This document shows positions 1,745 through 60,695 of a stretch of DNA of 64,000 bases, piece after piece. The stretch is from Octopus vulgaris (Eukaryota), in contig OX597815.1 in NCBI GenBank assembly GCA_951406725.2, positions 182,962,001 to 183,026,000 on the forward strand, written 5' to 3'. Both the position numbers and the translations under genes were made by a program. The notes beneath the pieces are model-generated. The model had not been told where the DNA came from. It did no database searches and saw only the letters and a list, made by a program, of their open reading frames with translations. How positions within the stretch are numbered: the stretch's first letter is position 1; every line of letters begins with the position of its first letter.

Positions 1745-2408
1745 ATCTTTTATCTTTTCCTTGTTTCACTCATTTGACTGCAGCCATGCTGGAGCACTTC
1801 CTTAAAGAATTTTTTACTCGAACGAATCAACCACAGTACTGATTTTATTTTCATACCTGGTACTTATTGAATCGGCCTCTTTTGACGAACCACTAAGTTA
1901 CGGAGACGTAAACACCAACACTAGCAGTGAAGCGGTGTTGGAGGACAAACGCAAGACACGCACACATACATATACATATATAAGGCGGGATTCTTTCGGT
2001 TTCCGTCTACTAAATCCACTCACAAGGCTTTGGTCCTCCCGACGCTATAGTATAAGACACTACAGTATAAAAAAGGCGGCGAGCTGGTAGAAACGTTAGC
2101 ACGCCGGGCGAAATTCGTAGCCGTATTTCGTCTGTCGTTACGTTCCGAGTTCAAATTCCGCCGAGGTCGACTTTGCCTTTCATCCTTTCGGGGTCGATAA
2201 ATTAAGTACAAGTTACGCACTGGGGTCGATGTAGTCGACTTAATCCCTTTGTCTGTCCTTGTTTGTCCCCTCTGTGTGTAGCCCCTTGTGGGTAGTAAAG
2301 AAATATATAGTATAAGACATTCGCCCAACATGCCACTCAGTGGAACTGAACGCGGTAACATGTGGCTGAGCAGTAAACTTCTTTCCACACAGCCACGCCT
2401 GCGCCTAT
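1745..2408 (-). mobile_element. tRNA-derived SINE family B (CORE-like, OR2-like), interrupted by a family A SINE
   Basis: Minus-strand head GGCGCAGGCGTGGCTGTGTGG...GGTTCAGTTCCACTG and 3' part ...GCTCCAGCATGGCTGCAGTCAAATGAGTGAAACAAG; homologous copies at 23357, 42428, 57330 and 59851. Confidence 0.85.
2074..2305 (+). mobile_element. tRNA-derived SINE family A (Meta/MESC-like core), full length
   Basis: GGCGGCGAGCTGG head, B-box-like GAGTTCAAATTCC, core GCCTTTCATCCTTTCGGGGTCGATAAATTAAGTAC, tail GCCCCTTGTGGGTAGTAAAGAAAT. TATAGTATAAGACA is duplicated at 2046-2059 and 2306-2319. Confidence 0.92.
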
Positions 2409-12056: not shown

Positions 12057-12126
<70 letters not shown>

Positions 12127-12210
12127 GATCATGATCATCATCATTATCATTATTATCATCATCATCATCATCATTATTATTATTATTATTATCATCATCA
12201 TCATCATTAT

Positions 12211-13233: not shown

Positions 13234-13248
13234 GTATTATTATTATCA

Positions 13249-13297
<49 letters not shown>

Positions 13298-13298
<1 letters not shown>

Positions 13299-15400
13299 TG
13301 AGCAAACAAATTGGACTTCAAGAAAAAAAACAAGCAAGGTAGAAAGCCAAAATCCAAAACGAAATAAAAAGAAAAGTGGGGAATTGTCGTTTGGTGACGA
13401 GTTTTTGAAAAGAATAAATGTCAAAACTAGAAAAGCAAGAAAGGTTAGAAGGAAATACAAAATAACAGAGGAATAACATCTCCCTTCCATCAAAGAGACA
13501 TTGAAACAACGCATACAAAGCACAATGTGCTAGAAGATATGGAAAACAAAAAAGGGGTAAATTCTAAGACAGAACAAGGTTTTCCAAACAGATGTAAAGA
13601 AATTTCGCAGAGAAATGGGGAAACAATCAATAGAAATAAAAGATCCATCTAATGTGGAGTGTCTGAAGTTGAGAAATTTTGGAAGAACATCTCGTAACCC
13701 TAAAAGATAATGAGGAAACAAGTTGAGTTACCATGGGAAATGAAAGGATAAAAGGTGTGAAATAGCAATAATGGGTAGAAGTTGAAGTGGAAGAAGGCAG
13801 ATCCTTTGCAAAACACGATTGGAACTTGTCACCAAGCAGAGATAAAATCCCCAAAATTATTGGTTAAATACACTTACAGAAATGCACATGGCACTAACCA
13901 AGGATCCTAAAAAACGTAGCTCAACTCTAAAAATCGCAACGAAGAGATCAACGACTTAGCTGTACCTGTTGTGCAATATGGTTTCAACAATGGCATCTAT
14001 TGGATCTTCAGGGAAAGGATACAAGAAAACAACACGCAAACCTCACATTGCGAAAAACAAAATACAACCCCAAGGCAGATATCGAGCGTTTCTATCCGTC
14101 GAGAAAAGGAAGAGGTTTCATCCAACTTAAATTATCCTATAAAATAACCACGAGTATCCTCCAAGCATATTCAAACCAGATATTGTATAATGATTCTAGT
14201 AAAAGACCACGAATACAAGAACATGCACCACTCCATAATGAAAAACGCAGAGAAGAAACGAAGAGAAACTATGAATCAGCAACATTGAAATTGCAAAAGA
14301 AACTGACTTACTAACGAGCAAGACAGACTCCACAAAAAATAAAGTAGTCTGACTGACTTAGAAATCTGAAAGACAGATAGTAACAAGGACCTCTGCATGG
14401 AAAATATCCCTTCGCACCCATGAAGCTGATGTTGACAAAACACAGATTCCATCAGTGGCCGAGAAGCTCAGGGTACAATGCGGCGAGCTGGCAGAAACGT
14501 TAGAATGCCGGGCGAAATGCTTAGCGGTATTTCGTCTGCCGTTACGTTATGAGTTCAAATTCCGCCGAGGTCGACTTTGCCTTTCATCCTTTCGGGGTCG
14601 ATAAATTAAGTACCAGTTACACACTGGGGTCGATGTAATCGACTTAATACCTATGTCTGTCCTTGTTTGTCCCCTCTATGTTTAGCCCCTTGTGGGTAGT
14701 AAAGAAATAGGTACAATGCTAAAACTGTGGAATTTAGCCTTGCTACCCAACACCAGAGCATGTTCACTAGAAACTTACAAGCAGACATTCTCTAAACTGG
14801 AAGAGACACAATATGTATGATAGAATTTATGACGAATAAGTGAAGACAAAAATACATATAATTTCGGGGATCTCCACCTTGGCTCCAACTGAATATAATG
14901 CTAGGCATGATCAGGCTGGTTAACAGCTTCACTGAACATTATGCAAACATAATGGTCAAGAGCTTGTTACAAATTTATATGAATACCATACGTTGTCAGT
15001 GATCGAAGCAAAAGAAGCAATTTTATGGGCTTTTATGGTATTGTACAGTCCACGCAAACCGCACCATAAATGCCAATTGGCCTGATATTATCATTTAAAA
15101 TTTTTCAAAATAAAACATGTCTAAACATTGACATGGCTATATCATCCGACAAAAATGTACCTTCTTAAGAGTACGAAGACCTAGAATTGTAGAATGTGGC
15201 ATCTGAAGACACGAACCACTGCAGCTGTAATTGGCGTGTTTAGTGTTATAAAGAAAGGCCTAAATGAGTTTCTTAAAAACATCCTTGGTAAAACCGTCAT
15301 TTATGAAATCCAAAACATCGTACTCAGCAGGGCTGTTCAAATTTTACGTAAAATTATAATCTGTGTAAAATCGAATAATAAATATTAAATTCCCTTTTTA
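13298..15400 (+). mobile_element. highly decayed R4/Dong-like LINE with internal deletions, interrupted by SINE A
   Basis: YNPKADIERFYPSRKGRGFIQL, GPLHGKYP, RHDQ, NANWPDI and MWHLKTRTTAAVIGVFSVIKKG remnants; starts immediately after (ATT)n. Confidence 0.8.
14480..14709 (+). mobile_element. SINE family A, full length, with TSD
   Basis: TSD GGTACAATGC at 14472-14481 and 14710-14719. Confidence 0.93.
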
Positions 15401-19984: not shown

Positions 19985-20394
19985 TATTGCTTTTGCACAG
20001 TTTCTAACGCTGGAGATGTACTACAGTGTCAGCTGTTCACTACTAGTGAACTAAGGTAACACCTCTTATTTTTCGAGCACCTTCCGGAGTATTCGAGCGG
20101 TTCCAAGCAGTGCTGTTTTCTGCAAGTGCTCCACCCTTATTGCAGCCCCTATTTGTTCCATGTACTTCTCAAGATTTTTGCTCACTGTTCCCAGGGTTCC
20201 GACAATTATCGGTAATACTATTACCCTTTTCATCGACCACAACTGCTAACTTCCCAAGCTAACCTGTCATATCTCTCGACTTTTCTTTCTTCCTTATCGC
20301 ATACATTGTTGTCAGCTGGGCATTCTATATCTATGATCCAGCATAGTTTGTTTTCTTTCTCAATTAAGACTATGTTTGGCTTCCTATTATCTAT

Positions 20395-20398
<4 letters not shown>
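19985..20398 (-). mobile_element. R4/Dong-like LINE 3' fragment
   Basis: IDNRKPNIVLIEKENKLCWIIDIECP and IGAAIRVEHLQKTALLGTARILRKVLE remnants; (TAA)n on both sides. Confidence 0.85.
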
Positions 20399-20432
<34 letters not shown>

Positions 20433-20469
20433 CATTATTATTATTATTATTATTATCATTATTATTATT

Positions 20470-20872
20470 ATTATTATTATCATCATCATTTGATGAAAAC
20501 TTATATCTTATTTTCCTGGTTATGATGGGAAGTGTCAGCTGTCCACAGCCAGCAGACTAAGGTGACGCTTGCTTACTGGTCATTCTTCAAGAACCCTGCA
20601 AAGAAATGATGCAGTTGCAAGTAACGCTGATTTTTGTACCAGTTTTTGTCAGCCATGTTGGAAGTTGAGCGCTGATACTTCCAAGTACACCTATTACTAT
20701 TGGTATCACGTCTACTTTCCTCATTGACCACAACCTTCTTATTTCCCACTTCAAATCACCATAGTTGTTAGTTTTTTCTTCTTCTTTCACATTGATCCTG
20801 TTATCACCGGAGCATGCTATGTCGATTATTATAGATGTTCTTTCTCTTTTTTCCCCACAACAATTATTACGA
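20470..20872 (-). mobile_element. R4/Dong-like LINE 3' fragment
   Basis: IIDIACSGDNRINVKEEEKTNNYGDLKWEIRRLWSMRKVDVIPIVIGVLG; (TAA)n tail. Confidence 0.85.
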
Positions 20873-27167: not shown

Positions 27168-27757
27168 GGCGGCGAGCTGGCAGAAACGTTAGCACGCCGG
27201 GTGAAATGCTTGGCGGTATTTCGTCTGCCGCTACGTTCTGAGTTCAAATTCCGCAGAGGTCGACTTTGCCTTTCATCCTTTCGGGGTCGATAAATTAAGT
27301 ACCAGTTACGCACTGGGGTCGGTGTAATCGACTTAATCCCAGTGGCTATCCTTGTTTGTCCTCTGTGTGTTTAGCCCCTTGTGGGCAATAAAGAAATAGG
27401 TATTTCGTCTGCCGCTACGTTCTGAGTTCAAATTCCACCGAGGTCGACTTTGCCTTTCATCCTTTCGGGGTCGATAAATTAAGTACCAGTTACGCACTGG
27501 GGTCGGTGTAATCGACTTAAACCCAGTGGCTGTCCTTGTTTGTCCCCTCTATGTTTAGCCCCTTGTGGGCAATAAAGAAATAAGAAACGTTGGCACGCCG
27601 GGCGAAATACTTAGCAGTATTTTGTCAGTCTTTATGTTATGAGTTCAAATTCCGCCGAGGTAGATTTTGCCTTTCATCTCTTCGAGGTCGATAAATTAAG
27701 TACCAATGCTGGACCCCTCCCCAAAAATTTCGGGCTTTGTACCTAGAGTAGAAAGAA
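27168..27757 (+). mobile_element. nested/tandem array of three SINE A units
   Basis: Tails AAAGAAATA run directly into internal SINE positions GGTATTTCG (27399) and AGAAACGTT (27583). Confidence 0.9.
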
Positions 27758-27984
27758 AATTACCAAGCCATCATCACCATCATTGCCATCGAAATACTTA
27801 CTGTCTGTAACACCCCATACACCTACCTAGCAAGGATCACACGATAGACAAAAATTCTTGTCAGTGCTGCATAGAACAAGGTGTATAATGCTTGATTCTA
27901 TGCGTTCTTTTATGTTATTAATTTTTTTAACATTAAAAAGTATAGATTTTGTGTGAAAGAGGTCGAGCAAATAAAAGACTATAA

Positions 27985-29390
<1,406 letters not shown>

Positions 29391-30482
29391 GCATATATCT
29401 AATATGTGTGCGCGTATGGGATGTCTCACTATATTCAATTTGTAGGTACCTACGTACTTAAAAACATATATATATATATATATATATATGTGTGTATGTG
29501 TCTGTGTGTGTGTTTATAATTGCATAGGAATTTAGTAAATATAGGCATATCCAAAGGTGAGTCACATGTAAGCTAACAGTTTGGGTTACTTAATTGTTTA
29601 AATGCTGCCATAATCATAGATGGGACGCTGATACACGTCGCTATAGGTTCCATGGTAGGTATAATATACGCATGCGCGCGCGCACACACACACATGTATA
29701 CAAACATACACGGATGGTGATACACAAACACGTGCGCAAACATATATACACATACATATGTATGCATATACGGATGGACAATCATATACCCGCCTCGCAT
29801 ATCTATACGCACACATATGTATACATAAGCGGAAGGACACATACATACATACATACATACCAACACATATGTACCGGAACATTTGAAGTATTTTATTATC
29901 CGAAATTATAGTCTATTATAGTATTTATGCTGAACAAAAGAATATAAAGAAACCCTTCCTCAACCCCCTCCCCCAAAAAATGATAAAAGGTAAAAAGAAG
30001 GTGAGTACAGGGCCAAAAAGAGGTGTTATATCATCAAAGAAGGAGTGATATTAAAATAAAAGAGAGCTAAGTCCAAAGGTAAACTAAGAAATCTCATTTT
30101 ACGGTAGGTTTACGTTTGATTTTGACTGCAACTCACACATGTCATGGTGTGATATGGATAATTAAACCGAGGGCTAAAGACAAGGGAAGTCGTTTTAGCT
30201 AATCTTATTGCTGCCACTTTAGTATCGGTGCAATGCACACATTACATTATCAGCCGTGTCACGACCGATATGTAATCTAAAGTTTTCCCCCAAAAGCTGA
30301 TTTATTGGCTACAGAAGTTGAAGGAACCAGTCCAGAACTGAAAGGCGTTTTGTATGAACCATTCAGAATCGTTGTTGGAGTAAAATACTAAGATATAACA
30401 AATATGGGTGGTTAGAAGTATTAAGGTGCGAAAATCTTAATCGTATCATCTACATTACTTTTCAGAATATCTATTGATAGAA

Positions 30483-31142
30483 GGCGGCGAGCTGGCGGAA
30501 ACGGTAGCACGCCGGGCGAAACGCATAGCGGTATTTCGTCTGCCGCTACGTTCTGAGTTCAAATTCCGACGAGGTCGATTTTGCCTTTCATCCTTTCGGA
30601 GTCGATAAATTAAGTACAAGTTACGCACTGGTGTCGATATAATCGACTTAATCCGCTTGTCTGTCCTTGTTTGTCCTCTCTGTGTTTAGTCCCTTGTGGG
30701 TAGTAAAGAAATAGGTATTTCGTCTGCCATTACATTCTGAGTTCAAATTCCGCCTTGGTCGACTTTGCCTTTCATCCTTTCGGGGTCAATTAAATAAGTA
30801 CCAGTTACGCACTGGGGTCGATATAATCGACTTAATCCGTTTGTCTGTCCTTGTTTGTTCTCTCTGTGTTTAGCCCCTTGTGGGTAGTAAAGAAATAGGT
30901 ATTTCGTCTGCCATTACATTCTGAGTTCAAATTCCGCCGAGGTCGACTTTGCCTTTCATTCTTTAAGGCGGCGAGCTGGCAGATACGTTAGCACGCCGGG
31001 CGAAATGCTTAGCGGTATTTCGTTGTCTTTACGTTCTGAGCTCAAATTCCGCCGAGGTCGACTTAGCCTTCCATCCTTTCGGGGTCGATAAATTAAGTAC
31101 CAGTTGCGTACTTAATTTCGGGCCTTGTACTTAGAGTAGAAA
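30483..31142 (+). mobile_element. nested array of SINE A units (mirror copy at 48245-48904)
   Basis: Repeated cores; flanked by AGAATATCT(A/C)TTGATAG. Confidence 0.9.
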
Positions 31143-32039
31143 AGAATATCTCTTGATAGGGAAGCAGCGTTATTTCTGATGTCATGCAATGTAGTTTTAA
31201 AATGAAATGTTTTTATTCTAATTTGTTTTGCAGATATAAGTTTGTCTCGCTAGATGTACATCGACCATAGAATAGGAGCCGCTATTCTAACTCGCTTTAC
31301 GTTAAATCGCCAAATTTAGATTCAAATTTGAAAGAGTTCCATATTAATGAATCGAGCATATAGATGCTTTTGGAAGGTAATGGTGCCGGAACGTCTCACT
31401 TCTCTTTCACAGTTAATCCATTGATTGTATTTGACATCGATCGCACAGCACTGCCTTAACTGATAAGTAACGGTTATCACATAATATGTTATAGGCTGAA
31501 CTGTACATTTCGTTCAGTGGGAAAGACGTCGCTGGATGAGTTCAACGGCTTGTAGGATGTCAATGCAGTTACTATAAAATGAGTAATCATAAAAAAACAG
31601 ACAAATTGGCTACTATGGTGGAGATAAAAACATGGAAATATATCAGAGCAATTGAAACGAATAAATATGGTAACGTTCAAGGATAGCATTGCGCTCTCTT
31701 ATTGAACGAAGAACAAAAAGAAAAAAATTATAAAGTTTAAAAGCAGATACAAAATTTGAGATAGACAAACTACCATGGCAATTGACATACGCGTGGTTGT
31801 TGGAGGAGTACAAGTTCGATATACTGGCAGGTACGAAATATAAAAAGTGACTAAAAGGTATAAATGAAGTAACTCAGAGGTGGAGCTCAGAAACTTCATT
31901 CCATTTTCCATTTTCATTTATCATTCACCTTGTAACATACGTTTTTGTGTTTATAAACATTGCTTTTCAGAATATCTATTGATATTGATAAGGCGGTGAG
32001 CTGGCAGAAACGTTAGCACGCCGGGCGAAATGCTTAGTA

Positions 32040-33281
32040 TTTGTACCGGAGTTTTGCAGAGTTTTGGATTTTTTTAAACATTTTTTTTGTAGTTGTTTGA
32101 TAATACTGACATAGACTTGCCCAAATGTAGCAATAAATAAACATTGATATTTTTTTTTCACCGTTGTTACAATAATCTGAAATGGAAATGTCAAAGGGCG
32201 ATATTCGAGCAATTTTGCTTTTCAACTTCAAAACAGGGCGTAATGTAGCTGAAACTGCTCGCGATATCAACGAAATGTTTGATGAGGAAATGACCAGTGA
32301 GTGGTCAGCTCGAAAATGGTTTAAACGATTTCGCAGTGGAGACCTGATCCTTGAAGATCATGAGCGTAGTGGACGCCCATCTATCATCGATGACGGTCAA
32401 TTAAAGACCCTCATTAAGAAAGATCCACGTAAAACCATCCAAGAACTGGCAAAAGAACTTCACGTTGGCCAGAAAAGTGCTTGCAACCATTTGCATGCGA
32501 TCGGAAAATCAAAAAGCTCGACAATTGGGTACCACACGATTTGAATGAAAATCAGAAAATGCGCAGATATGAAATTTGCTTGTCGCTTCTTCTCCGTAAC
32601 CAGACCGATCCATTTCTCGTATTGTAATTTGCGATGAAAAGTGGATTCTGTACAATAATAATAAAAAGAAGTTCTTCGCAGTGATTGGGTCAAAATGAAG
32701 CACCAAAAACCTTTCCCAAACCCGAGCTCTTCAAAAAGAAGGTTATGGTGACTGTTTGGTGGTGTACTGTCGGACTCATCCACTACAACTTCTTAAAACC
32801 CGGAAAAACCATTACTGCAGAAACGTATTGCCATGAAATTGCCAAAATGAACGAACAACCACTACTCCTCCGTCCCAGACTGTTCAACAGAAGAAGGCCA
32901 ATCATTCTTCATGACAATACTCGACCAGACGCTTCACTAATGACGCTTCAGAAGTTGAAGGAACTTCGCTACGAAGTTCTTCCCACCCAGCATATTCCCC
33001 AGACCTTTCTCCTACCGTCAATTATTTTTGAAGCACCTTGATGGTTTCCTGCAAGAGAAAGAGTTCAAAAATCAAACCGATGCTGAAAGTGCGTTCAAGG
33101 AGTTCATCAGCTCCAGAGCTCCAAATTTTTAAGTTACCGGAATAAACAAACTTGTAACTCATTGGCAAAAATGTGTTGATTGTAATGGTACTTACTTTGA
33201 TGAATAAAATTTCCGTATTGTTGAAATATATTGTGTTGGATTTCACTTTTCAAATCGTTGCTTACTTTTCACTCAGCCTGA
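32040..33281 (+). mobile_element. mariner transposon lacking its left TIR; frameshifted transposase 32182-33207
   Basis: MEMSKGDIRAILLFNFKTG..WFKRFRSGD..RSGRP, DEKW, KKVMVTVWW and LHDNTRPD motifs; right TIR ends CTCAGCCTGA-TA. Confidence 0.93.
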
Positions 33282-34808
33282 TAACACGTGTACAGCTGGA
33301 AGCTACTCTTTATTCTTTCCACAAGTAATAACATTAGAAAATAAATTTCAACTACATATATTTATGATGTGTGTGTGTGTATGTGATGCATAGAAATTTG
33401 AAATTTTGTATGATGTATCTGTATCTACACACTGCATGTCGGAAAAAATTCAAATCTTCCATCCATGCAACATCAGACGTGTATTCAGAAGAGACATCTT
33501 CTGAGTGAGACATCTTTCCTAAATAAAGACTATGAGAAGTATTCCGTCCCCTGCAATCGTAATAGTGAATATAAAGGTGAAAGTAGCTGCTGTCTGAATG
33601 TAAGAACAGAACTTTTTACAACTGTAATCTGTGGGGAGAGAGAAAATGAATCCGGTACGGCCGGTCACATATGGAAGGTAAAGTGAGCTCAACAACCCTT
33701 ATGAAACTCAGTCAAAATAATAGATAGGAAGCGACATAAGAAGGTAAGATGACCGAAAGAATGTTCGCATATGCTGGGCTTCCATAACTTCCGTAAGCCA
33801 AGCTTAGAAATGAAGACTATGTGAGAGCCTTTAATAATGAAAGGATATGAAAACCACGTAAGCAAAGTTAGGTTTCAATTCCCTAATTTCCACTCCATAG
33901 TTGTCGTGCTGGTTAATAGGATTGCGAATATAAACATTGATTAAGTGTGAAAGGATAACGGTGTGAAAAGTTAGGCTGCAGGCGTGAGTTCAGATCCAGG
34001 GTTAGTGAAGCTAAATATACTTTGGTTGAAGTATAACAAACTAAACAGTATCACTAATAGCAGAAGAACTAATAATGAGAATGCATGTTATCCAATATAG
34101 ACTTTCTCGAAATTACTTAAATTGTTACAGATTCTTCATCAACGCACACCTGTTTATTTTGCCAACTAAGCAGATATGAAAAGGCCAAGTCAATCTTGAC
34201 ATATAAAACAAGTATACGATATCTCAGTAAGAAACAAGAAATCCTGATTAATTTCCTTTTGTACACAGCATCAAGTGTAGGTTCTGCAAACTTCGGAAGA
34301 ATCTAATTTAAAACACAATGAGATTGATAGAGATGGAGGTGTTGTGGGGGTAAAACATAAGAACCAGAAACAATAAACTCAAGTGGATATTTATTTTCAA
34401 GAACCATGAGGACAAATGACATTTTCTTGCTATCATTACTGGAAAATATGTAAAAAGAACACCTAATATCGAAAATATACTGGCTCATAACCATGGCTGA
34501 ATGTATGCCCTTGCTTTTCTTCAGGTGTTTAAAAACTTACAAGAAGTGAAATTACATCTTCAGCTATGTAGTTGGGAAGCTAACTTCTAACCACACACGA
34601 CTATAAATGTATTATTATTGTTATTATTATTATTATTATTATTATTCCTTCTTTCTTCAAATTTTTTTTCCGTTTCTCGCCGGGTGTTTTCCGTACACCC
34701 AGGGCAGAGAAGCTCATTCTTTGCATTCTCAGATTACACACGCAAATTCGCAGGTAAAATATGCATTTAGAAAATAAATAAATAAATAAATAAATTCATG
34801 AGTGGATG

Positions 34809-34852
<44 letters not shown>

Positions 34853-35361
34853 GGTGGCTAGTAGGCAATTTACAATCAAAAGGTACAAGTACAATTGTCA
34901 CTAAAGTCAATTCAGCACTGCTAGAAATAAGAGTCAAAATAACTCTTAGCAACCTCCCTACATAAAACGAGAGAGTCAGAGCATCGATGATTTCGGATTG
35001 AATTAATCTTCACCAGAGACACCTACTCCACTGCCTAGGGTTAAGCTGAACTCGCCTTGGCAGTTTATAAGAAATACGATGGGAACCAGTGGCTGATTCA
35101 ATAAATTGGTAAAGTGAAAATTATAAATTATTAAGGTGGCTATTCGCGATTTACAACCAAAAAGCACAAAATCGTCATTAAAGCGACTAAGGCTGCAAGT
35201 CAGCACCAGGATTGCTAGAAATAAGAGTCAAAACAGCTCTTAGGCACGGGCAAAACACATCTATTGACTGACAAGAGAGATAACCCTGTATATAAGAAGA
35301 TTGTAGATCTATAAAATGATGATTTGAGAAACACGTAATAAAATCTTGTATGTGTTATATT

Positions 35362-35790
35362 CTTTTCTACTCTAGGCACAAACCCGAAATTTTGGGTGCG
35401 GGTGCCACTCGGTTAGATCGACCCCAGTACGAAACTAGCACTTAATTTATCGACCCCGAAAGGATGAAAGGCAAAATCGACCTCGGCGGAATTTGAACTC
35501 AGAACGTAAAGACAGACGAAATACAGCTAAGCATTTCGCCCGGCGTGCTAACATTTCTTATTTCTTTACTGCCCACAGGGGGCTAAACATAGAGGGGACA
35601 AACAAGGACAGATAAAGGGATTAAGTCGATTACATCGACCCCAGTGCGTAACTGGTACCTATTTAATCGACCCCGAAAGGATGAAAGGCAAAGTCGACCT
35701 CGGCGGAATTTGAACTCAGAACGTAACCGCAGTCGAATTACCACTAAGCATTTTTCCCGGCGTGCTAACGTTTCTTCCAGCTCGCCGCCT
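35362..35790 (-). mobile_element. two nested SINE A units
   Basis: Two reverse-complement cores; the tail of one joins AGAAATGTTAGCACG of the other. Confidence 0.9.
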
Positions 35791-35824: not shown

Positions 35825-36115
35825 ACATTTTTATATATAAACACTTATGTATTGAGTAGGTAACATATTTGTTTAGAAATTAAGAAAATCTCAAACGCAA
35901 GAGAAAAGCTGTGAAAACATGTTTAGAAAATCCGGATGAAAAGCTACAGAGTTCGATTCTCTGTAGCGGCTGCTGACTATTTTTTCCCGTCTATAGGGGT
36001 ACTTTACCCAGTTTTCTAAAGCTATTTCTCGGTTATTCTCCTCCGTTTGAGATTTTCTTAATTTCTAAAAATAGGTTACCAACCCGATGCTTCAATGTTT
36101 GTACATAAACAGGTT
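35825..36115. mobile_element. foldback/MITE-like element with ~110-bp imperfect inverted arms
   Basis: TTTAGAAATTAAGAAAATCTCAAACG (35872) vs CGTTTGAGATTTTCTTAATTTCTAAA (36044); internal hairpin GCTACAGAG-N7-CTCTGTAGC at 35943-35967. Confidence 0.75.
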
Positions 36116-36243
36116 CCCATATTCCAAAAAGCTGTTATTTAGTGTTATAAAAGAAAGACGGTATCAGTTGTCAGGGGCCGTTGAGTTCCATGGTACATAC
36201 CGGTCAGCTGGAATGTGAGGTTTGCAGAGTTTGGTTGTCTCTG

Positions 36244-37449
36244 ATTTCTTTATTACCCACAAGGGGCCACGAAGAGGGGGACGTTACAAGACGGGACATG
36301 GGGTACATAAAGTAAAAATAAAATATGAAGTAAAAGATGAATTATATGTAATGAGATGGGACGGCTTACGAACCCCCAACTCGTAGTTCCGTTTAAATAC
36401 AATTGTACATTTCACAGTTACATATATTCCAGTTCAAAATACAATTTTACAGTTACATATATTCCAGTTCAAAATACAATAATTTTACAATTTACATTTT
36501 AACATTACATATATTCCTGTTCAAAATACAACTTTACATTTTACAATTTTACAATTAACAATTTTTACTTTTTAACCTTACATATATTCTAATTCTTTTT
36601 TTTATATTGGACGTTCGTCCGTCATATATTCTAATAGGTCCGTTTGGTCTATTACATTTGGTAAATTGTCATACCGTACATAATGCGTTATATGAATAGC
36701 ATTAAATATCTTTTTTAATTTTGTGTATGTTTCTTTTTCTATAATTGCGACTTATACATCGTCACCATACAGTTTTGGGTTCACCTTCACCCTGACCAAC
36801 CCTTTCTTACCTGCAAGTCTCTTTTCCACTTCTGTATTCTTGATATACATCACAACTACTTTCAGGTTTTTTCCTGTAGGCCTTCTTCCATATTTACACG
36901 ATTCCAACTGCTCGTTCACTCTTGTCTCCCATTCTTGTTCAAACTCTGTCCTTGGCCGCTCTCTCGCCTTCTCTTTACTTCCTGTTCTTTGCATGTTCTC
37001 TCTTCTTTTTCTTCTGTTATCTTGCTTTGGATTTTTTTCTTTTTTAGAACATTCGGTGGTGATTCCACCCTTGATCTCTTCCTATCTTCTGTTCTTTCCT
37101 CTTCTGCACTTGCTCGTTCTTCTCCCGTATCCTCATTTAGCTGCTGCTCCTCCATTCGTGCCTCCTCCGCTTTCGCTTCCTCCTGCACACACGCATCTTT
37201 ACACTCCTCTATTACAGCTTCCGGTGCTTTTGTTTTTTTTTCCCGCGGGCACACATCCTTCATGTGGCCCCTCGATTTACAATTATAGCAGATTGGGGGT
37301 CTTCCCTCTACCACAACTCTAAGCCGTGTCTCATCCGGGTAGACCAACTCCTCCGGGATGTTGTACAGGTCTCGCACGGTTATGTGTGCCAGAACCTGCA
37401 CCGTATATCCCCACCACTTAACCTCTGCTGACTTCTCCACCTTCAACAC
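36244..37449 (-). mobile_element. 5'-truncated ORF1-only non-LTR retroposon (HAL1-like, Tx1/L1-type gag with CCHC knuckle)
   Basis: RVVVEGRPPICYNCKSRGHMKDVC zinc knuckle; reading frame traceable to ~36603 through one frameshift and one stop; no EN/RT before the 3' end; 19-bp TSD CAGAGTTTGGTTGTCTCTG at 36225-36243 and 37450-37468. Confidence 0.82.
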
Positions 37450-37614
37450 CAGAGTTTGGTTGTCTCTGGCAGCTGTTAGCCGCCTTTTCCCATTTATAGA
37501 GTTACCTTACCTGTCTTCACAGCTATTCTGCGTTCAAGGTCTTAATTTCTACAAAGAAACAAAAAAAAAAAAATTAATTAAAATAACGATTCCGCTAGTA
37601 AGTACTTTAGTAGT

Positions 37615-37983: not shown

Positions 37984-38424
37984 ACTTTAGTAGTCCAAAT
38001 TTTCTTGAGGGGTTTTATCGGGACAAATTATGAAAGTGAAAGGTAATGAGAAAATGGAAAAAGATACTCCTGTCGACATTGTAAGAATGTAGGTGGACGT
38101 TGTTTCAAAGAAATAACTCAATTCCGAAGCTCTTGTTATTTTGTAGAATATGGATAAACAAGAGATTAACTAATGACGTGGAATGTAAATATTATGGTAG
38201 ATATTGCAATTCTAGACATTGTCAAGAGATTGGAATACTAGACACTGTGGATGGTTTTGATGATGTCAAAAGTCAAGATGAACAATATAATTTTGTCCAC
38301 TTAATGATGCATTAGTAATTGAGAAATATATTTCTACTAACTTGGTTTGATGTGAAAGATGATTGAGATTTTACGATGTTCATGTTCTCTCAATATTAGT
38401 AGCATAACTATTATTAGTTCGCAA

Positions 38425-38625
38425 AATCGTTAGCACGCCGGAAAAAAATGCTTGGCAGCAGTTCGTCCGTTTTTATATTCTGAGTTCAAATTCCTCCGAG
38501 GTCGACTTTGCCTTTTATCATTTCAGGGTCAATAAAATAAGTGCCAGTTGAGCACTGGACTCGATGTAACCGACTTACCCACTCCCTCAAAATTGCTGGA
38601 CTTGTGCCAAAATTTGAAATCAATA
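38425..38625 (+). mobile_element. SINE family A, older subfamily
   Basis: Diverged core GAGGTCGACTTTGCCTTTTATCATTTCAGGGTC. Confidence 0.8.
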
Positions 38626-43197: not shown

Positions 43198-43865
43198 AGG
43201 TATTTCGTTTGTTTTCACGTTCTGAGTTCAAATTCCGCCGAGGTCGACTTTGCCTTTCATCATTTCGGAGTCGATTAAATAAGTACCAGTTACGCACTGG
43301 GGTCGATATAATCGACTTAACCTGTTTGTCTGTCCTTGTTTGTTCCCTCTATGTTTAGCCTCTCGTGGGCAATAAAGAAATAAGAAACGTTGGCATCCGG
43401 GCGAAATGCTTAGCGGTATTTCGTCAGTCTTAGCGGTATTTCGTCAGTTAAGGCGGTGAGCTGCTATTACGATCGTCCTATTACGATCTCTCCTCCTCCT
43501 CCTCCTCCTCCTCCTAGGTATTTCGTCTGCGTTACGTTCTGAGTTCAAATTCCGTCGAGGTCGACTTTGCCTTTCATCCTTTCGGGGTCGATAAACTAAG
43601 TACCAGTTACGCACTGGGGTCGATGTAATCGACTTAATACCTATGTCTGTCCTTGTTTGTTCCCTCTGTGTTTAGCCCCTTGTGGGTAATAAAGAAATAG
43701 GTATTTCGTCAGTCTTTATGTTCTGAGTTCAAAAATTCGCCGAGGTTGACTTTGCCTTTTGTCCTTTCGGGGTCGATAAATTAAGTGTCAACTTCGTACT
43801 AGGGTCCATCTAATCGACTGGCCCCCTCCCAACAAAATTTCGGGCTTTGTGCCTAGAGTAGAAAA
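43198..43865 (+). mobile_element. nested SINE A array with (CCT)n-tailed inserts
   Basis: Three cores plus partial heads. Confidence 0.88.
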
Positions 43866-44092
43866 GAATGATGGTGATGATGGACTGATAATATTCATGA
43901 TATTGATAATGTTGACATGATCGATGATTAAGCAGCGGGTGATGGTAACAGAAATGGTGTTAGTCGTGAGATTTGGGAAGGCATTTGCTAAAGGTATTCT
44001 AGCTATGGCAATCTCGCTTTCCAATCTATTAGTCACTTTCGAAGTCATTAAGATATAATTCGAAAGAAATTATTTTGCTCATGCAGCACTGA

Positions 44093-44526
44093 CTCTTGTC
44101 AGTCAATAGATGTGTTTTGCCCGTGCCTAAGAGCTGTTTTGACTCTTATTTCTAGCAATCCTGGTGCTGACTTCCAGCCTTAGTCGCTTTAATGACGATT
44201 TTGTGCTTTTTGGTTGTAAATCGCGAATAGCCACCTTAATAATTTATAATTTTCACTTTACCAATTTATTGAATCAGCCACTGGTTCCCATCGTATTTCT
44301 TATAAACTGCCAAGGCGAGTTCAGCTTAACCCTAGGCAGTGGAGTAGGTGTCTCTGGTGAAGATTAATTCAATCCGAAATCATCGATGCTCTGACTCTCT
44401 CGTTTTATGTAGGGAGGTTGCTAAGAGTTATTTTGACTCTTATTTCTAGCAGTGCTGAATTGACTTTAGTGACAATTGTACTTGTACCTTTTGATTGTAA
44501 ATTGCCTACTAGCCACCTTAATAATG

Positions 44527-44576
<50 letters not shown>

Positions 44577-47500
44577 CATCCACTCATGAATTTATTTATT
44601 TATTTATTTATTTTCTAAATGCATATTTTACCTGCGAATTTGCGTGTGTAATCTGAGAATGCAAAGAATGAGCTTCTCTGCCCTGGGTGTACGGAAAACA
44701 CCCGGCGAGAAACGGAAAAAAAATTTGAAGAAAGAAGGAATAATAATAATAATAATAATAATAACAATAATAATACATTTATAGTCGTGTGTGGTTAGAA
44801 GTTAGCTTCCCAACTACATAGCTGAAGATGTAATTTCACTTCTTGTAAGTTTTTAAACACCTGAAGAAAAGCAAGGGCATACATTCAGCCATGGTTATGA
44901 GCCAGTATATTTTCGATATTAGGTGTTCTTTTTACATATTTTCCAGTAATGATAGCAAGAAAATGTCATTTGTCCTCATGGTTCTTGAAAATAAATATCC
45001 ACTTGAGTTTATTGTTTCTGGTTCTTATGTTTTACCCCCACAACACCTCCATCTCTATCAATCTCATTGTGTTTTAAATTAGATTCTTCCGAAGTTTGCA
45101 GAACCTACACTTGATGCTGTGTACAAAAGGAAATTAATCAGGATTTCTTGTTTCTTACTGAGATATCGTATACTTGTTTTATATGTCAAGATTGACTTGG
45201 CCTTTTCATATCTGCTTAGTTGGCAAAATAAACAGGTGTGCGTTGATGAAGAATCTGTAACAATTTAAGTAATTTCGAGAAAGTCTATATTGGATAACAT
45301 GCATTCTCATTATTAGTTCTTCTGCTATTAGTGATACTGTTTAGTTTGTTATACTTCAACCAAAGTATATTTAGCTTCACTAACCCTGGATCTGAACTCA
45401 CGCCTGCAGCCTAACTTTTCACACCGTTATCCTTTCACACTTAATCAATGTTTATATTCGCAATCCTATTAACCAGCACGACAACTATGGAGTGGAAATT
45501 AGGGAATTGAAACCTAACTTTGCTTACGTGGTTTTCATATCCTTTCATTATTAAAGGCTCTCACATAGTCTTCATTTCTAAGCTTGGCTTACGGAAGTTA
45601 TGGAAGCCCAGCATATGCGAACATTCTTTCGGTCATCTTACCTTCTTATGTCGCTTCCTATCTATTATTTTGACTGAGTTTCATAAGGGTTGTTGAGCTC
45701 ACTTTACCTTCCATATGTGACCGGCCGTACCGGATTCATTTTCTCTCTCCCCACAGATTACAGTTGTAAAAAGTTCTGTTCTTACATTCAGACAGCAGCT
45801 ACTTTCACCTTTATATTCACTATTACGATTGCAGGGGACGGAATACTTCTCATAGTCTTTATTTAGGAAAGATGTCTCACTCAGAAGATGTCTCTTCTGA
45901 ATACACGTCTGATGTTGCATGGATGGAAGATTTGAATTTTTTCCGACATGCAGTGTGTAGATACAGATACATCATACAAAATTTCAAATTTCTATGCATC
46001 ACATACACACACACACATCATAAATATATGTAGTTGAAATTTATTTTCTAATGTTATTACTTGTGGAAAGAATAAAGAGTAGCTTCCAGCTGTACACGTG
46101 TTATCAGGCTGAGTGAAAAGTAAGCAACGATTTGAAAAGTGAAATCCAACACAATATATTTCAACAATACGGAAATTTTATTCATCAAAGTAAGTACCAT
46201 TACAATCAACACATTTTTGCCAATGAGTTACAAGTTTGTTTATTCCGGTAACTTAAAAATTTGGAGCTCTGGAGCTGATGAACTCCTTGAACGCACTTTC
46301 AGCATCGGTTTGATTTTTGAACTCTTTCTCTTGCAGGAAACCATCAAGGTGCTTCAAAAATAATTGACGGTAGGAGAAAGGTCTGGGGAATATGCTGGGT
46401 GGGGAAGAACTTCGTAGCGAAGTTCCTTCAACTTCTGAAGCGTCATTAGTGAAGCGTCTGGTCGAGTATTGTCATGAAGAATGATTGGCCTTCTTCTGTT
46501 GAACAGTCTGGGACGGAGGAGTAGTGGTTGTTCGTTCATTTTGGCAATTTCATGGCAATACGTTTCTGCAGTAATGGTTTTTCCGGGTTTTAAGAAGTTG
46601 TAGTGGATGAGTCCGACAGTACACCACCAAACAGTCACCATAACCTTCTTTTTGAAGAGCTCGGGTTTGGGAAAGGTTTTTGGTGCTTCATTTTGACCCA
46701 ATCACTGCGAAGAACTTCTTTTTATTATTATTGTACAGAATCCACTTTTCATCGCAAATTACAATACGAGAAATGGATCGGTCTGGTTACGGAGAAGAAG
46801 CGACAAGCAAATTTCATATCTGCGCATTTTCTGATTTTCATTCAAATCGTGTGGTACCCAATTGTCGAGCTTTTTTGATTTTCCGATCGCATGCAAATGG
46901 TTGCAAGCACTTTTCTGGCCAACGTGAAGTTCTTTTGCCAGTTCTTGGATGGTTTTACGTGGATCTTTCTTAATGAGGGTCTTTAATTGACCGTCATCGA
47001 TGATAGATGGGCGTCCACTACGCTCATGATCTTCAAGGATCAGGTCTCCACTGCGAAATCGTTTAAACCATTTTCGAGCTGACCACTCACTGGTCATTTC
47101 CTCATCAAACATTTCGTTGATATCGCGAGCAGTTTCAGCTACATTACGCCCTGTTTTGAAGTTGAAAAGCAAAATTGCTCGAATATCGCCCTTTGACATT
47201 TCCATTTCAGATTATTGTAACAACGGTGAAAAAAAAATATCAATGTTTATTTATTGCTACATTTGGGCAAGTCTATGTCAGTATTATCAAACAACTACAA
47301 AAAAAATGTTTAAAAAAATCCAAAACTCTGCAAAACTCCGGTACAAATACTAAGCATTTCGCCCGGCGTGCTAACGTTTCTGCCAGCTCACCGCCTTATC
47401 AATATCAATAGATATTCTGAAAAGCAATGTTTATAAACACAAAAACGTATGTTACAAGGTGAATGATAAATAAAAATGGAAAATGGAATGAAGTTTCTGA

Positions 47501-50029
47501 GCTCCACCTCTGAGTTACTTCATTTATACCTTTTAGTCACTTTTTATATTTCGTACCTGCCAGTATATCGAACTTGTACTCCTCCAACAACCACGCGTAT
47601 GTCAATTGCCATGGTAGTTTGTCTATCTCAAATTTTGTATCTGCTTTTAAACTTTATAATTTTTTTCTTTTTGTTCTTCGTTCAATAAGAGAGCGCAATG
47701 CTATCCTTGAACGTTACCATATTTATTCGTTTCAATTGCTCTGATATATTTCCATGTTTTTATCTCCACCATAGTAGCCAATTTGTCTGTTTTTTTATGA
47801 TTACTCATTTTATAGTAACTGCATTGACATCCTACAAGCCGTTGAACTCATCCAGCGACGTCTTTCCCACTGAACGAAATGTACAGTTCAGCCTATAACA
47901 TATTATGTGATAACCGTTACTTATCAGTTAAGGCAGTGCTGTGCGATCGATGTCAAATACAATCAATGGATTAACTGTGAAAGAGAAGTGAGACGTTCCG
48001 GCACCATTACCTTCCAAAAGCATCTATATGCTCGATTCATTAATATGGAACTCTTTCAAATTTGAATCTAAATTTGGCGATTTAACGTAAAGCGAGTTAG
48101 AATAGCGGCTCCTATTCTATGGTCGATGTACATCTAGCGAGACAAACTTATATCTGCAAAACAAATTAGAATAAAAACATTTCATTTTAAAACTACATTG
48201 CATGACATCAGAAATAACGCTGCTTCCCTATCAAGAGATATTCTTTTCTACTCTAAGTACAAGGCCCGAAATTAAGTACGCAACTGGTACTTAATTTATC
48301 GACCCCGAAAGGATGGAAGGCTAAGTCGACCTCGGCGGAATTTGAGCTCAGAACGTAAAGACAACGAAATACCGCTAAGCATTTCGCCCGGCGTGCTAAC
48401 GTATCTGCCAGCTCGCCGCCTTAAAGAATGAAAGGCAAAGTCGACCTCGGCGGAATTTGAACTCAGAATGTAATGGCAGACGAAATACCTATTTCTTTAC
48501 TACCCACAAGGGGCTAAACACAGAGAGAACAAACAAGGACAGACAAACGGATTAAGTCGATTATATCGACCCCAGTGCGTAACTGGTACTTATTTAATTG
48601 ACCCCGAAAGGATGAAAGGCAAAGTCGACCAAGGCGGAATTTGAACTCAGAATGTAATGGCAGACGAAATACCTATTTCTTTACTACCCACAAGGGACTA
48701 AACACAGAGAGGACAAACAAGGACAGACAAGCGGATTAAGTCGATTATATCGACACCAGTGCGTAACTTGTACTTAATTTATCGACTCCGAAAGGATGAA
48801 AGGCAAAATCGACCTCGTCGGAATTTGAACTCAGAACGTAGCGGCAGACGAAATACCGCTATGCGTTTCGCCCGGCGTGCTACCGTTTCCGCCAGCTCGC
48901 CGCCTTCTATCAATAGATATTCTGAAAAGTAATGTAGATGATACGATTAAGATTTTCGCACCTTAATACTTCTAACCACCCATATTTGTTATATCTTAGT
49001 ATTTTACTCCAACAACGATTCTGAATGGTTCATACAAAACGCCTTTCAGTTCTGGACTGGTTCCTTCAACTTCTGTAGCCAATAAATCAGCTTTTGGGGG
49101 AAAACTTTAGATTACATATCGGTCGTGACACGGCTGATAATGTAATGTGTGCATTGCACCGATACTAAAGTGGCAGCAATAAGATTAGCTAAAACGACTT
49201 CCCTTGTCTTTAGCCCTCGGTTTAATTATCCATATCACACCATGACATGTGTGAGTTGCAGTCAAAATCAAACGTAAACCTACCGTAAAATGAGATTTCT
49301 TAGTTTACCTTTGGACTTAGCTCTCTTTTATTTTAATATCACTCCTTCTTTGATGATATAACACCTCTTTTTGGCCCTGTACTCACCTTCTTTTTACCTT
49401 TTATCATTTTTTGGGGGAGGGGGTTGAGGAAGGGTTTCTTTATATTCTTTTGTTCAGCATAAATACTATAATAGACTATAATTTCGGATAATAAAATACT
49501 TCAAATGTTCCGGTACATATGTGTTGGTATGTATGTATGTATGTATGTGTCCTTCCGCTTATGTATACATATGTGTGCGTATAGATATGCGAGGCGGGTA
49601 TATGATTGTCCATCCGTATATGCATACATATGTATGTGTATATATGTTTGCGCACGTGTTTGTGTATCACCATCCGTGTATGTTTGTATACATGTGTGTG
49701 TGTGCGCGCGCGCATGCGTATATTATACCTACCATGGAACCTATAGCGACGTGTATCAGCGTCCCATCTATGATTATGGCAGCATTTAAACAATTAAGTA
49801 ACCCAAACTGTTAGCTTACATGTGACTCACCTTTGGATATGCCTATATTTACTAAATTCCTATGCAATTATAAACACACACACAGACACATACACACACA
49901 TATATATATATATATATGTTTTTAAGTACGTAGGTACCTACAAATTGAATATAGTGAGACATCCCATACGCGCACACATATTAGATATATGCATACATAC
50001 TTATACATACATATATATATATATGTATG

Positions 50030-50080
<51 letters not shown>

Positions 50081-50181
50081 GTATATATATATATATGTAT
50101 ATATATATGTATATATATGTATATATATGTATATATATATATATGTATATATATATGTATATATATGTATATATATATGTG

Positions 50182-50226
<45 letters not shown>

Positions 50227-50368
50227 ACATGTATATATATATATATATATGTATACATGTATATATATATATATATATGTATACATGTATATATATATAT
50301 ATATATATGTATACATGTATATATATATATATATATGTATACATGTATATATATATATATATATATGT

Positions 50369-50408
<40 letters not shown>

Positions 50409-50589
50409 ACATGTATATATATATATATACATATATATATGCATATATGTATGTATGTGTATATGTGTGCGTGTATATATATATATATATATATGCATAT
50501 ATGTATGTATGTGTATATGTGTGTGTGTATGTATATATATATATATATGTGTGTGTGTGTATGTATGCATGTATACATATGTACACATA

Positions 50590-50642
<53 letters not shown>

Positions 50643-50674
50643 ATGTATGCATGTATACATATGTACACATATGC

Positions 50675-50708
<34 letters not shown>

Positions 50709-50737
50709 ATGTATGCATGTATACATATGTACACATA

Positions 50738-50773
<36 letters not shown>

Positions 50774-50906
50774 TATGTGTATTTATAGTCTTTTATTTGC
50801 TCGACCTCTTTCACACAAAATCTATACTTTTTAATGTTAAAAAAATTAATAACATAAAAGAACGCATAGAATCAAGCATTATACACCTTGTTCTATGCAG
50901 CACTGA
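44093..50906 (-). repeat. right arm of the inverted segmental duplication
   Basis: Reverse complement of 27861-35277; ATGCAGCACTGA at 44081-44092 and 50895-50906. Confidence 0.97.
46104..47347 (-). mobile_element. mariner transposon (duplicate of 32040-33281)
   Basis: WVPHDL and HPAYSPDLSP motifs read in frame here; TIR TA-TCAGGCTGAGTG. Confidence 0.93.
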
Positions 50907-52554: not shown

Positions 52555-53070
52555 TTGGTTTCAAATTTTGCCACAAGGCCAGAAATTTTTAGGGGAGGGC
52601 GTAAATCGATTATACTCACCCAAGTGCTCAACTGGTACTTATTTTATCGATTCCCAAAAGGATGAGAAGCAAAGTTAACCGAGACGGAATTTGAACTCAG
52701 AACGTAAGGACAGGTGAAATGTCGTGAAGCATTTTGTCTGGTGTTTTAATGTGTCTGCCACTTCGCCGCCTTAGTCCAAAATAAATATTCGTTTCTACTC
52801 TAGGCAAAAGGCATGAAATTTTGTGGGTGGGGCCAGTCGATAAGATCGACTCCAGCACGCAACTGGTACTTAATTTATCGACCCCGAAAGGATGAAAGGC
52901 AAAGTCAACCTCGGTGGAGTCCAAAATAAATATTCGTTTCTACTTTAGGCACAAAGCCCGAAATTTTGGGGGTGGGAGCCAGTCGATAAGATCGACCCCA
53001 GCACGCAACTGGTATTTAATTTATCGACCCCGAAAGGATGAAAGGTAAAGTCAACTTCGGCGGAATCCAA
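52555..53070 (-). mobile_element. SINE A older-subfamily copies with a ~145-bp local tandem duplication
   Basis: TCCAAAATAAATATT recurs at about 52776, 52920 and 53066, with cores between. Confidence 0.85.
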
Positions 53071-60625: not shown

Positions 60626-60639
60626 GCCAAGCTTTAATA

Positions 60640-60693
<54 letters not shown>

Positions 60694-60695
<2 letters not shown>

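What the first reader, a model, noticed from the sequence alone, without database searches (positions are those of the whole stretch)
36225..37468. ORF1-only (HAL1-like) retroposon whose 3' end matches the tail of the dominant SINE
Seen: a 19-bp TSD (CAGAGTTTGGTTGTCTCTG) brackets a 1.2-kb minus-strand insert. It encodes a gag-like protein with a CX2CX4HX4C knuckle, traceable to ~36603, followed directly by a ~360-nt UTR, with no endonuclease or RT. Its last ~60 nt align with the SINE A tail; GCCCCTTGTGGGTAATAAAGAAAT is identical to 43675-43698. Established: SINEs share 3' ends with the LINEs that mobilise them, and HAL1 elements encode only ORF1. Inference: a three-part system of an unseen autonomous Tx1/L1-type LINE, this ORF1-only element and SINE A, all using one 3' recognition signal without a poly(A) tail.
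Basis: partly seen in the sequence, partly recalled or inferred. Interest (0 to 1): 0.8.

Follow-up and report, generated by a model that had tools for sequence, protein, structure and literature searches.

The report
Octopus ORF1-only retroposon sharing SINE tail
This is a shortened, broken copy of a multi-copy octopus jumping element that carries a gene for a predicted RNA-binding protein but no copying enzyme and ends in the same short tail as a common small repeat, so both likely borrow the enzyme of a third, still unseen element that would recognise this tail.

Summary
Observation confirmed. A 19-bp target-site duplication brackets a 1206-nt minus-strand insert (36244-37449); another organism's contig shows the empty site with one copy of the 19-mer. 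The insert is the 3' part of a LINE-type ORF1 (one CCHC knuckle; full-length octopus relatives are predicted tandem-RRM proteins), running to the family's natural C-terminus, then a 358-nt UTR and no ORF2. Contigs from all 4 runs laid cross the ORF1 stop into this UTR, including a diverged subfamily and the organism lacking this insertion, so a one-off deletion is unlikely. Differences among copies are mostly synonymous (13 of 21). The last 24 nt match 12 SINE tails in the window; they hold a 4-bp hairpin whose stem is swapped, loop kept, in the second SINE family. No poly(A), no separate TSD. The autonomous partner was not found, and its Tx1/L1 identity is only likely: this ORF1 type occurs in several clades. 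ORF1-only LINE derivatives are known (HAL1, HeT-A, Ag-Sponge); one sharing a structured non-poly(A) tail with a tRNA-type SINE in a mollusc was not found in ten literature searches. Verdict: new variant of a known kind.

The parts
36225..36243 (.). Target-site duplication, copy at the element's 3' end
   Evidence: exact 19-mer, two copies in window; single copy at the empty site in X20
37450..37468 (.). Target-site duplication, copy at the truncated 5' end; lies in a decayed copy of a neighbouring inverted-repeat element
   Evidence: 71% over 80 nt to 35947-36026
36244..37449 (-). 5'-truncated ORF1-only retroposon copy, 1206 nt
   Evidence: loose ends at 37450 in X1 (5 contigs) and X6, and at 37445 in X20, go on in sequence unlike the flank (table 7)
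36919..37449 (-). ORF1 frame A: end of the second predicted RRM, knuckle, Glu/Lys-rich linker (true frame ends at a frameshift between 37081 and about 36975)
   Evidence: 64% identity to P0004, E 4.5e-26
37249..37290 (-). CX2CX4HX4C zinc knuckle
   Evidence: sequence; PF00098 E 6.5e-4
36602..36979 (-). ORF1 frame B: conserved C-terminal domain of about 90 aa, premature stop at 36754-36752, natural stop 36604-36602
   Evidence: profile of six relatives hits it at E 4e-18, and the four relatives that cover the whole domain end 0-1 residues after it; alignments A1, A4
36304..36601 (-). 3' UTR body with AT-rich repeats of about 35 bp (36398-36595)
   Evidence: bridged to ORF1 by contigs of 4 runs
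36244..36303 (-). Tail related to the SINE A tail: 36 nt weakly alike, then 24 nt near-identical; hairpin GCCC-CTTGT-GGGT at 36267-36255 followed by AATAAAGAAAT, no poly(A)
43517..43699 (+). SINE A unit with the identical 24-nt tail (43675-43698), inside a tandem array
2074..2305 (+). Single full-length SINE A copy, 14-bp TSD, same tail
43700..43868 (+). SINE B unit: same body, different tail with hairpin GGGC-TTTGT-GCCT (stem swapped, loop kept)

Best explanation
The insert is a 5'-truncated, decayed copy of a multi-copy octopus retroposon family that carries ORF1 and a 3' UTR but no ORF2, and it likely moved by target-primed reverse transcription using the ORF2 protein of an unseen autonomous LINE, probably of the L1/Tx1 group, which would recognise the small hairpin tail that SINE A also carries. 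Shown: insertion with a 19-bp TSD and an empty site elsewhere; ORF1 joined to this UTR in other copies; shared tail with covarying stem. Inferred: origin by loss of ORF2 from an autonomous LINE; trans-mobilisation through the tail; ORF1p kept under selection because it would coat and chaperone its own RNA (as proposed for HAL1 and HeT-A); clade of the helper.
For: Empty site in X20. 5 of 30 listed pieces bridge the ORF1 stop into the UTR: X1 record 2 (36442-36672, depth 843 against 67 for the flank contig), X20 record 11 (36571-36763, depth 32 against 6, in the run that shows the empty site), X3 records 19 and 18 (the latter with 38 other letters and a 51-nt skip), X6 record 25. In X20 the main distal-UTR contig (depth 777) and main ORF1 contigs (683, 835) are of like depth. 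X6 record 30, a 2549-nt diverged relative, has 730 nt 3' of the place matching 37034, where this element has 790 nt to its end, which leaves no room for ORF2 unless the contig is simply cut. Premature stop not shared by any laid depth; 13 of 21 segregating listed differences in ORF1 are synonymous against 27% expected, P about 0.001. The C-terminal domain ends where relatives end. Full-length relative P0090 is predicted as two RRM-like domains plus knuckle. All 11 strong-stem YTTGT hairpins of the window lie at 3' ends of SINE A (8), SINE B (2) or this element (1); 0.07 expected from shuffles; 3 of 4 stem pairs change on both sides. Single SINE A copies have TSDs of 10-14 exact bp starting right after the tail. 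L1-Tx1 is abundant in O. vulgaris: 80 families, 56 Mb (PMC13282606 supplement).
Against: No autonomous element with this tail was seen. No single contig spans ORF1 to the tail; the join is tiled from overlapping pieces. One search shows only 30 pieces (928 more not shown), 24 loose ends (228 more not shown) and 40 of 200 differences, so ORF2-bearing copies could be among rows not shown. In X20 depth drops about tenfold over 36413-36640 (104-221 against 1450-2080 in the ORF1 end), so the dominant X20 subfamily is not shown to be joined across the UTR repeats. The synonymous excess could come partly from autonomous copies. The tail does not fold better than shuffles (z 0.88 to -1.6); the hairpin pattern was chosen after seeing the sequences and rests on three related tail types. 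SINE/LINE pairs with shared tails are rare in the L1 clade (three found, PMC3472496). Pfam finds no RRM or ZCCHC3-type domain in P0090 itself.
Confidence: 0.72

Rival explanations
1. The family is ORF1-only, but the helper is not the LINE that gave ORF1: the tail was taken over, by template switch, from a SINE or from a LINE of another clade (such as an ORF1-less R4/Dong or RTE element), making ORF1 and tail of different origin.
For: No partner seen. ORF1 shuffling between clades is documented (PMC4120745) and SINE tails are exchanged (PMC4824008). Dong-R4 and RTE are among the recently active LINEs of O. vulgaris (PMC13282606). Shared tails are rare for L1-clade LINEs.
Against: The tail differs from SINE A upstream of the last 24 nt, and loose ends in X3, X6 and X20 show further 3' ends closer to this element's version than to SINE A's (table 7; compared by eye), so a recent capture from SINE A is unlikely. 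No other LINE fragment of the window ends in the hairpin.
Confidence: 0.15
2. The copies are mostly autonomous two-ORF LINEs; the ORF1-UTR join is a minority deletion form copied a few times or recurrently made during insertion.
For: Tables are cut; depth dips over the UTR repeats in X20; ORF1 bins in X1 reach 14530 against 2500-7200 in the UTR.
Against: The join stands in 4 of 4 runs and three organism labels, in contigs of depth far above the flank and in a diverged form; no listed loose end at the stop.
Confidence: 0.1
3. The tail match is a separate short SINE insertion or chance.
For: SINE A tails are common in the window (12 copies).
Against: No SINE body upstream of the tail and no second TSD; the element's TSD starts directly after the tail; contigs of other copies run from the UTR into the tail (X3 record 17, 36244-36397, depth 70); blastn E 3e-6 within the window.
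Confidence: 0.03

Closest known systems
HAL1 (half-L1) of mammals
   Same: Non-autonomous LINE derivative that encodes only ORF1p (PMC5753468, passages); TSD, 5' truncation.
   Different: HAL1 derives from mammalian L1 with a type II (Transposase_22) ORF1, and mammalian L1 recognises poly(A). Here ORF1 is type I (predicted RRM-RRM-CCHC plus an extra C-terminal domain), the end is a hairpin tail without poly(A), shared with a tRNA-type SINE, in a mollusc.
HeT-A (Jockey-derived) and Ag-Sponge (CR1-derived)
   Same: ORF1-present non-autonomous LINEs, thought to multimerise with the helper's proteins (PMC5786205, passage).
   Different: Other clades; HeT-A is telomere-bound (recalled). That list names no Tx1-derived or molluscan case. 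Jockey, L2 and CR1 type I ORF1s mostly have three knuckles (PMC4120745 Table 1); this has one.
Stringent SINE/LINE tail pairs (ZfL2, maize ZmSINE/LINE1-1_ZM)
   Same: Short 3' stem-loop with variable stem and conserved loop, read by ORF2p (PMC4176376 abstract; PMC3472496).
   Different: Here the LINE-side partner in hand is itself non-autonomous; the ORF2 is unseen; no 3' microsatellite or poly(A).
Tx1-clade LINEs
   Same: RRM/zf-CCHC ORF1 variants are typical of Tx1-type elements in non-mammalian animals (PMC5203782); Xenopus Tx1 inserts into a non-autonomous DNA transposon (PMC4494074), and this copy sits in a decayed inverted-repeat element.
   Different: No RT to place it; target specificity not shown.

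Membership tests
ORF1-only non-autonomous LINE (HAL1-like kind) | LINE-type ORF1 | tested here: met
   knuckle; relatives predicted as tandem RRM plus knuckle, best Foldseek hits are two-RRM proteins, E 2.6e-4
ORF1-only non-autonomous LINE (HAL1-like kind) | No ORF2 between ORF1 stop and 3' end | tested here: met
   358-nt UTR in this copy; C-terminal domain belongs to ORF1 and shows no endonuclease fold among listed hits
ORF1-only non-autonomous LINE (HAL1-like kind) | Same ORF1-UTR junction in independent copies | tested here: met
   5 of 30 listed pieces from 4 of 4 runs bridge it; tables were cut, so the share of such copies is unknown
ORF1-only non-autonomous LINE (HAL1-like kind) | Retrotransposed: TSD and 5' truncation | tested here: met
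   19-bp TSD, empty site, 5' loose ends
ORF1-only non-autonomous LINE (HAL1-like kind) | 5' and 3' ends shared with an autonomous LINE | not testable with these tools
   no genome held; collection scans empty
HAL1 proper (mammalian) | Type II ORF1 (Transposase_22) from mammalian L1 | tested here: not met
   no Transposase_22 hit among the 25 families shown for 40 family members; the protein has a CCHC knuckle, the mark of type I
HAL1 proper (mammalian) | Poly(A) end | tested here: not met
   the TSD follows AATAAAGAAAT directly; poly(A) as a HAL1 feature is recalled
Tx1/L1 clade derivative | RT phylogeny places the helper in L1/Tx1 | not testable with these tools
   no ORF2 in hand
Tx1/L1 clade derivative | ORF1 related to Tx1/L1 ORF1 | tested here: inconclusive
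   Atlas look-alikes include ZCCHC3 RNA-binding domains (0.90, rank 8) and DUF4283 of plant L1 (TM 0.42, under the bar); type I ORF1 also in other clades; the ZCCHC3-Tx1 link is recalled and was not found in print
Tx1/L1 clade derivative | Target-sequence preference | tested here: inconclusive
   one site only; it lies in a decayed inverted-repeat element
Stringent-type SINE/LINE tail system | Shared 3' stem-loop with compensatory changes | tested here: met
   (90% of 40 cells paired, 3 of 4 pairs changed on both sides; slid controls 27.5-55%); ten hand-picked rows, three tail types
Stringent-type SINE/LINE tail system | ORF2p binds the stem-loop and needs it | not testable with these tools
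   needs an assay
LTR retrotransposon or retroviral gag | Helical capsid domain before the knuckle, and LTRs | tested here: not met
   the region before the knuckle is predicted alpha/beta RRM-like; no terminal direct repeats but the TSD

The most novel reading that the evidence does not exclude
A split LINE system: a deep octopod radiation of ORF1-only elements (81 related proteins among the 139 in hand, many from separate 50%-identity clusters) with no two-ORF parent left, living on an RT from an ORF1-less LINE through a hairpin tail that also drives the main octopus SINEs, with ORF1p and RT supplied by separate elements.
Probability: 0.12. Interest if true: 0.85.

Novelty: new variant of a known kind. 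Interest (0 to 1): 0.58.

Why it matters
SINEs make up 11.6% of the O. vulgaris genome (PMC13282606), and I found no paper naming their partner LINE. This element ties the SINE A tail to a LINE-type ORF1 and defines a short hairpin bait, so one genome search can now name the enzyme behind the octopus SINE expansion. If the helper is Tx1/L1, it would be a rare stringent, non-poly(A) tail in that group in an animal, which bears on whether poly(A) recognition in L1 is derived (PMC3472496). An ORF1-only element, a SINE and a LINE on one signal would also let one test what ORF1p is for: the SINE moves without its own, while this family appears to keep it under selection.

Tried and rejected
No whole genome was held. 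Word-index protein searches found nothing with the knuckle part or the C-terminal part among longer proteins and only 3 hits with alignment A2; HMMER on cluster representatives worked. Exact tail patterns: 0 matches in viral contigs and metagenome contigs. Rfam: 0 matches in the window. Earlier findings of the scan: nothing. Expression: no RNA holder listed; the RNA label of X3 and X6 is a guess, so nothing is claimed on transcription. Folding whole tails gave no significant z-score. C-terminal domain: no Pfam family shared by members, no Atlas hit, no PDB sequence hit under E 0.34, model pLDDT 69 with weak ferredoxin-like matches only (best Z 6.0, rmsd 3.5, 79 aligned). No endonuclease or RT motif by a crude pattern check in 81 family proteins, which says little as ORF2 would be a separate frame. 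The protein tree has 9 of 17 inner branches open and cannot place the clade. No second copy of the element in the window. One search was translated in the wrong frame and not used. Bao and Jurka 2010 on HAL1 is not held. Repbase and Dfam could not be searched; the family may be filed there as an L1-Tx1 or unknown consensus.

Full report
Setting. The window is repeat-rich animal DNA. All 23 named protein clusters among the 30 looked up are from Octopus (bimaculoides, sinensis, vulgaris) or carry no species (one MetaClust entry); the rest are unnamed. So the window is very likely an octopus genome. No whole genome was held. I keep the finding's label SINE A; that it is the octopus OR1/OR2 type with a Deu/Nin-like body is recalled and untested.

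Observation. The 19-mer occurs exactly twice, at 36225-36243 and 37450-37468. Run X20 holds one contig (depth 7, flank contig 5.8) joining 36224 to 37450 with 19 letters fitting either side, the empty site. The 1206-nt insert reads on the minus strand as an ORF without a start: frame A 37449-36919 with the knuckle at 37290-37249, a frameshift between 37081 and about 36975, frame B with a premature stop at 36754-36752 and the last stop at 36604-36602, then 358 nt to the TSD. Loose ends at 37450 (X1, 5 contigs; X6) and 37445 (X20) go on in sequence unlike the flank, so this copy is 5'-truncated.

What the protein is. phmmer with the first 73 residues gave 128 hits at E up to 0.001; the best single-stretch hit is P0004 (64%, E 4.5e-26). 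A profile of the region before the knuckle picks 81 of the 139 proteins in hand, 40 of which built it. A profile of the C-terminal domain from six relatives, without the window's copy, hits frame B at E 4e-18, and the four relatives covering the whole domain end 0-1 residues after it: the window keeps the natural end of ORF1. The full-length relative P0090 (404 aa) folds, with 40 sequences, to two alpha/beta domains, the knuckle, a helix, a disordered linker and a small C-terminal alpha/beta domain (mean pLDDT 71.6); Foldseek's top hits are two-RRM proteins (5 at E under 0.001), and the wide search gives ferredoxin-like domains at Z up to 8.2 (rmsd 2.4, 79 aligned). This is the type I LINE ORF1 layout, not a capsid gag. 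Type I occurs in I, Jockey, R1, Tad1, plant L1, L2 and CR1 (PMC4120745, passages), mostly with three knuckles in the Jockey group; RRM/CCHC variants are also tied to Tx1 (PMC5203782, passages). Atlas look-alikes include ZCCHC3 RNA-binding domains (0.90) and DUF4283, leads only. Tx1/L1 is thus likely, not shown.

Is ORF1-only a family trait? Four of 24 listed runs were laid at 80% likeness. Depth over the element is 1267-14530 in X1 against 67 for the flank contig and 104-2083 in X20 against 5.8; the tool warns that this is no copy number, but it shows many copies. Of the 30 pieces listed (928 not shown), 5 bridge the stop by 31 nt or more on each side, from all four runs: X1 record 2, X20 record 11, X3 records 19 and 18, X6 record 25; a sixth (X6 record 26) overlaps by only 17 nt and is not counted. 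X20 shows the empty site, so its bridging contig likely comes from other copies. X3 record 17 runs from the UTR into the tail. None of the 24 loose ends shown (228 not shown) lies at the stop. X6 record 30, a 2549-nt diverged relative, has 730 nt on the 3' side where this element has 790. Against: no piece spans the whole; depth in X20 dips tenfold over the UTR repeats. Of the 40 differences listed (160 not shown) I dropped 9 outside ORF1 and 8 where the frame is unsure; of 23 left, 2 are private to the window copy (one is the premature stop) and 13 of the other 21 are synonymous against 27% expected (P about 0.001). This is a rough sign of purifying selection in the source lineages, which may include autonomous ones.

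The tail. The last 24 nt match 12 SINE A tails at 0-3 mismatches; two of these are repeats of others within a 6.7-kb inverted duplication and several are tandem units. The 36 nt upstream are weakly alike (P 0.0075 at best of five lengths). There is no SINE body and no second TSD. The tail holds GCCC-CTTGT-GGGY; SINE B, with the same body, ends in GGGC-YTTGT-GCCT. All 11 such hairpins in the window sit at 3' ends of SINE A, SINE B or this element, against 0.07 in 30 shuffles; on ten hand-picked tails 90% of 40 cells pair and 3 of 4 pairs change on both sides. The pattern was defined after the fact, and whole-tail folding is not significant. Variable stem with kept loop is what ORF2p reads in stringent LINEs (PMC4176376, abstract; PMC3472496, first third of the text). 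Three single SINE A copies have exact TSDs of 14, 10 and 12 bp that start within 1 nt of the tail's end. Loose ends behind 36275-36279 in X3, X6 (5 contigs) and X20 show further 3' ends that share the tail but differ upstream; these are the candidates for sister subfamilies or the helper, but only 30 letters of each are shown.

Mechanism. Likely: a full element of about 2.6 kb (estimated from X6 record 30) is transcribed and makes ORF1p, which would coat its RNA; an ORF2p from an autonomous LINE would bind the hairpin, nick the target and prime reverse transcription at the end of AATAAAGAAAT; early second-strand capture gave this truncated copy and the 19-bp TSD; it then decayed. SINE A would use the same enzyme. 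Insertion, junction and shared tail are shown; helper, clade, binding and the role of ORF1p are inferred. Rivals: tail and ORF1 of different origin (0.15), minority deletion form (0.10), nested SINE or chance (0.03).

Against what is known. ORF1-present non-autonomous LINEs are HAL1 (L1), HeT-A (Jockey) and Ag-Sponge (CR1) (PMC5786205, passages; PMC5753468, passages). It works like these but is not HAL1 (type I ORF1, no poly(A)). Ten searches of the held library listed no paper on an octopus ORF1-only element or on the partner of this SINE. The 2026 O. vulgaris repeat annotation (PMC13282606: first third read; word search of main text and its one supplement) has no mention of ORF1, HAL1 or partner, and lists 80 L1-Tx1 families. 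Also seen as passages: PMC4758252, PMC4494074, PMC3747384, PMC8967140, PMC4824008, PMC3531059. Subscription papers (Ohshima and Okada 1994, Bao and Jurka 2010), Repbase, Dfam and unread supplements with SINE/LINE pair tables (PMC3472496, PMC3531059) may already hold part of this.

Verdict. Real, well supported as an ORF1-only family with a SINE-shared hairpin tail; helper unseen. New variant of a known kind; interest 0.58.

Noticed in passing
window 28618-35277 and 44093-50787: A 6.7-kb inverted duplication at 97.6% identity, holding a SINE array and mariner pieces; the ORF1 element lies in the 8.8-kb spacer. Could be real or an assembly effect.
   Followed up: partly
window 35872-36069, and 36076-36243 plus 37450-37555: A MITE-like element with 45-nt inverted arms and an inner hairpin; the insertion site is the matching hairpin of a decayed neighbour copy (71% over 80 nt). 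Depth above the flank contig in X1 suggests a repeat family.
   Followed up: partly
window 27168-27790, 30482-31150, 35360-35790, 43199-43868: SINE A units form tandem arrays that re-enter at two fixed points of the head and end in a SINE B unit; the array at 30482 has one TSD-like repeat around the whole. Suggests template jumping or SINE-in-SINE targeting.
   Followed up: partly
window 2074-2305 (+), 26748-26517 (-): Single SINE A copies carry 10-14 or more extra bases between the 5' TSD and the head.
   Followed up: no
window 52590-52771 (-), 38421-38600 (+): A third SINE tail type with a related CTTGT hairpin but a different end: at least three tails on one SINE body.
   Followed up: partly
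proteins P0006, P0013, P0027, P0090; window 36606-36890 (-): A conserved C-terminal domain of about 90 aa after the low-complexity linker of this ORF1 family, with no Pfam family; predicted weakly ferredoxin-like, possibly a third RNA-binding module.
   Followed up: yes
window 10155-11485 (+); 12599-12961 (-), 13931-14314 (+), 20230-20556 (-): An RT fragment (PF00078 E 1e-24) and three fragments that look like restriction-endonuclease-type LINE ends (recalled, no Pfam hit); none ends in the hairpin tail.
   Followed up: partly
window 2907-3422, 32176-33041, 46354-47211, 60313-60696: Mariner transposase fragments.
   Followed up: no
protein P0020 (O. bimaculoides gene model): An RGS gene model with this ORF1's knuckle and C-terminal domain spliced inside: likely a mis-annotation or exonised copy.
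   Followed up: no
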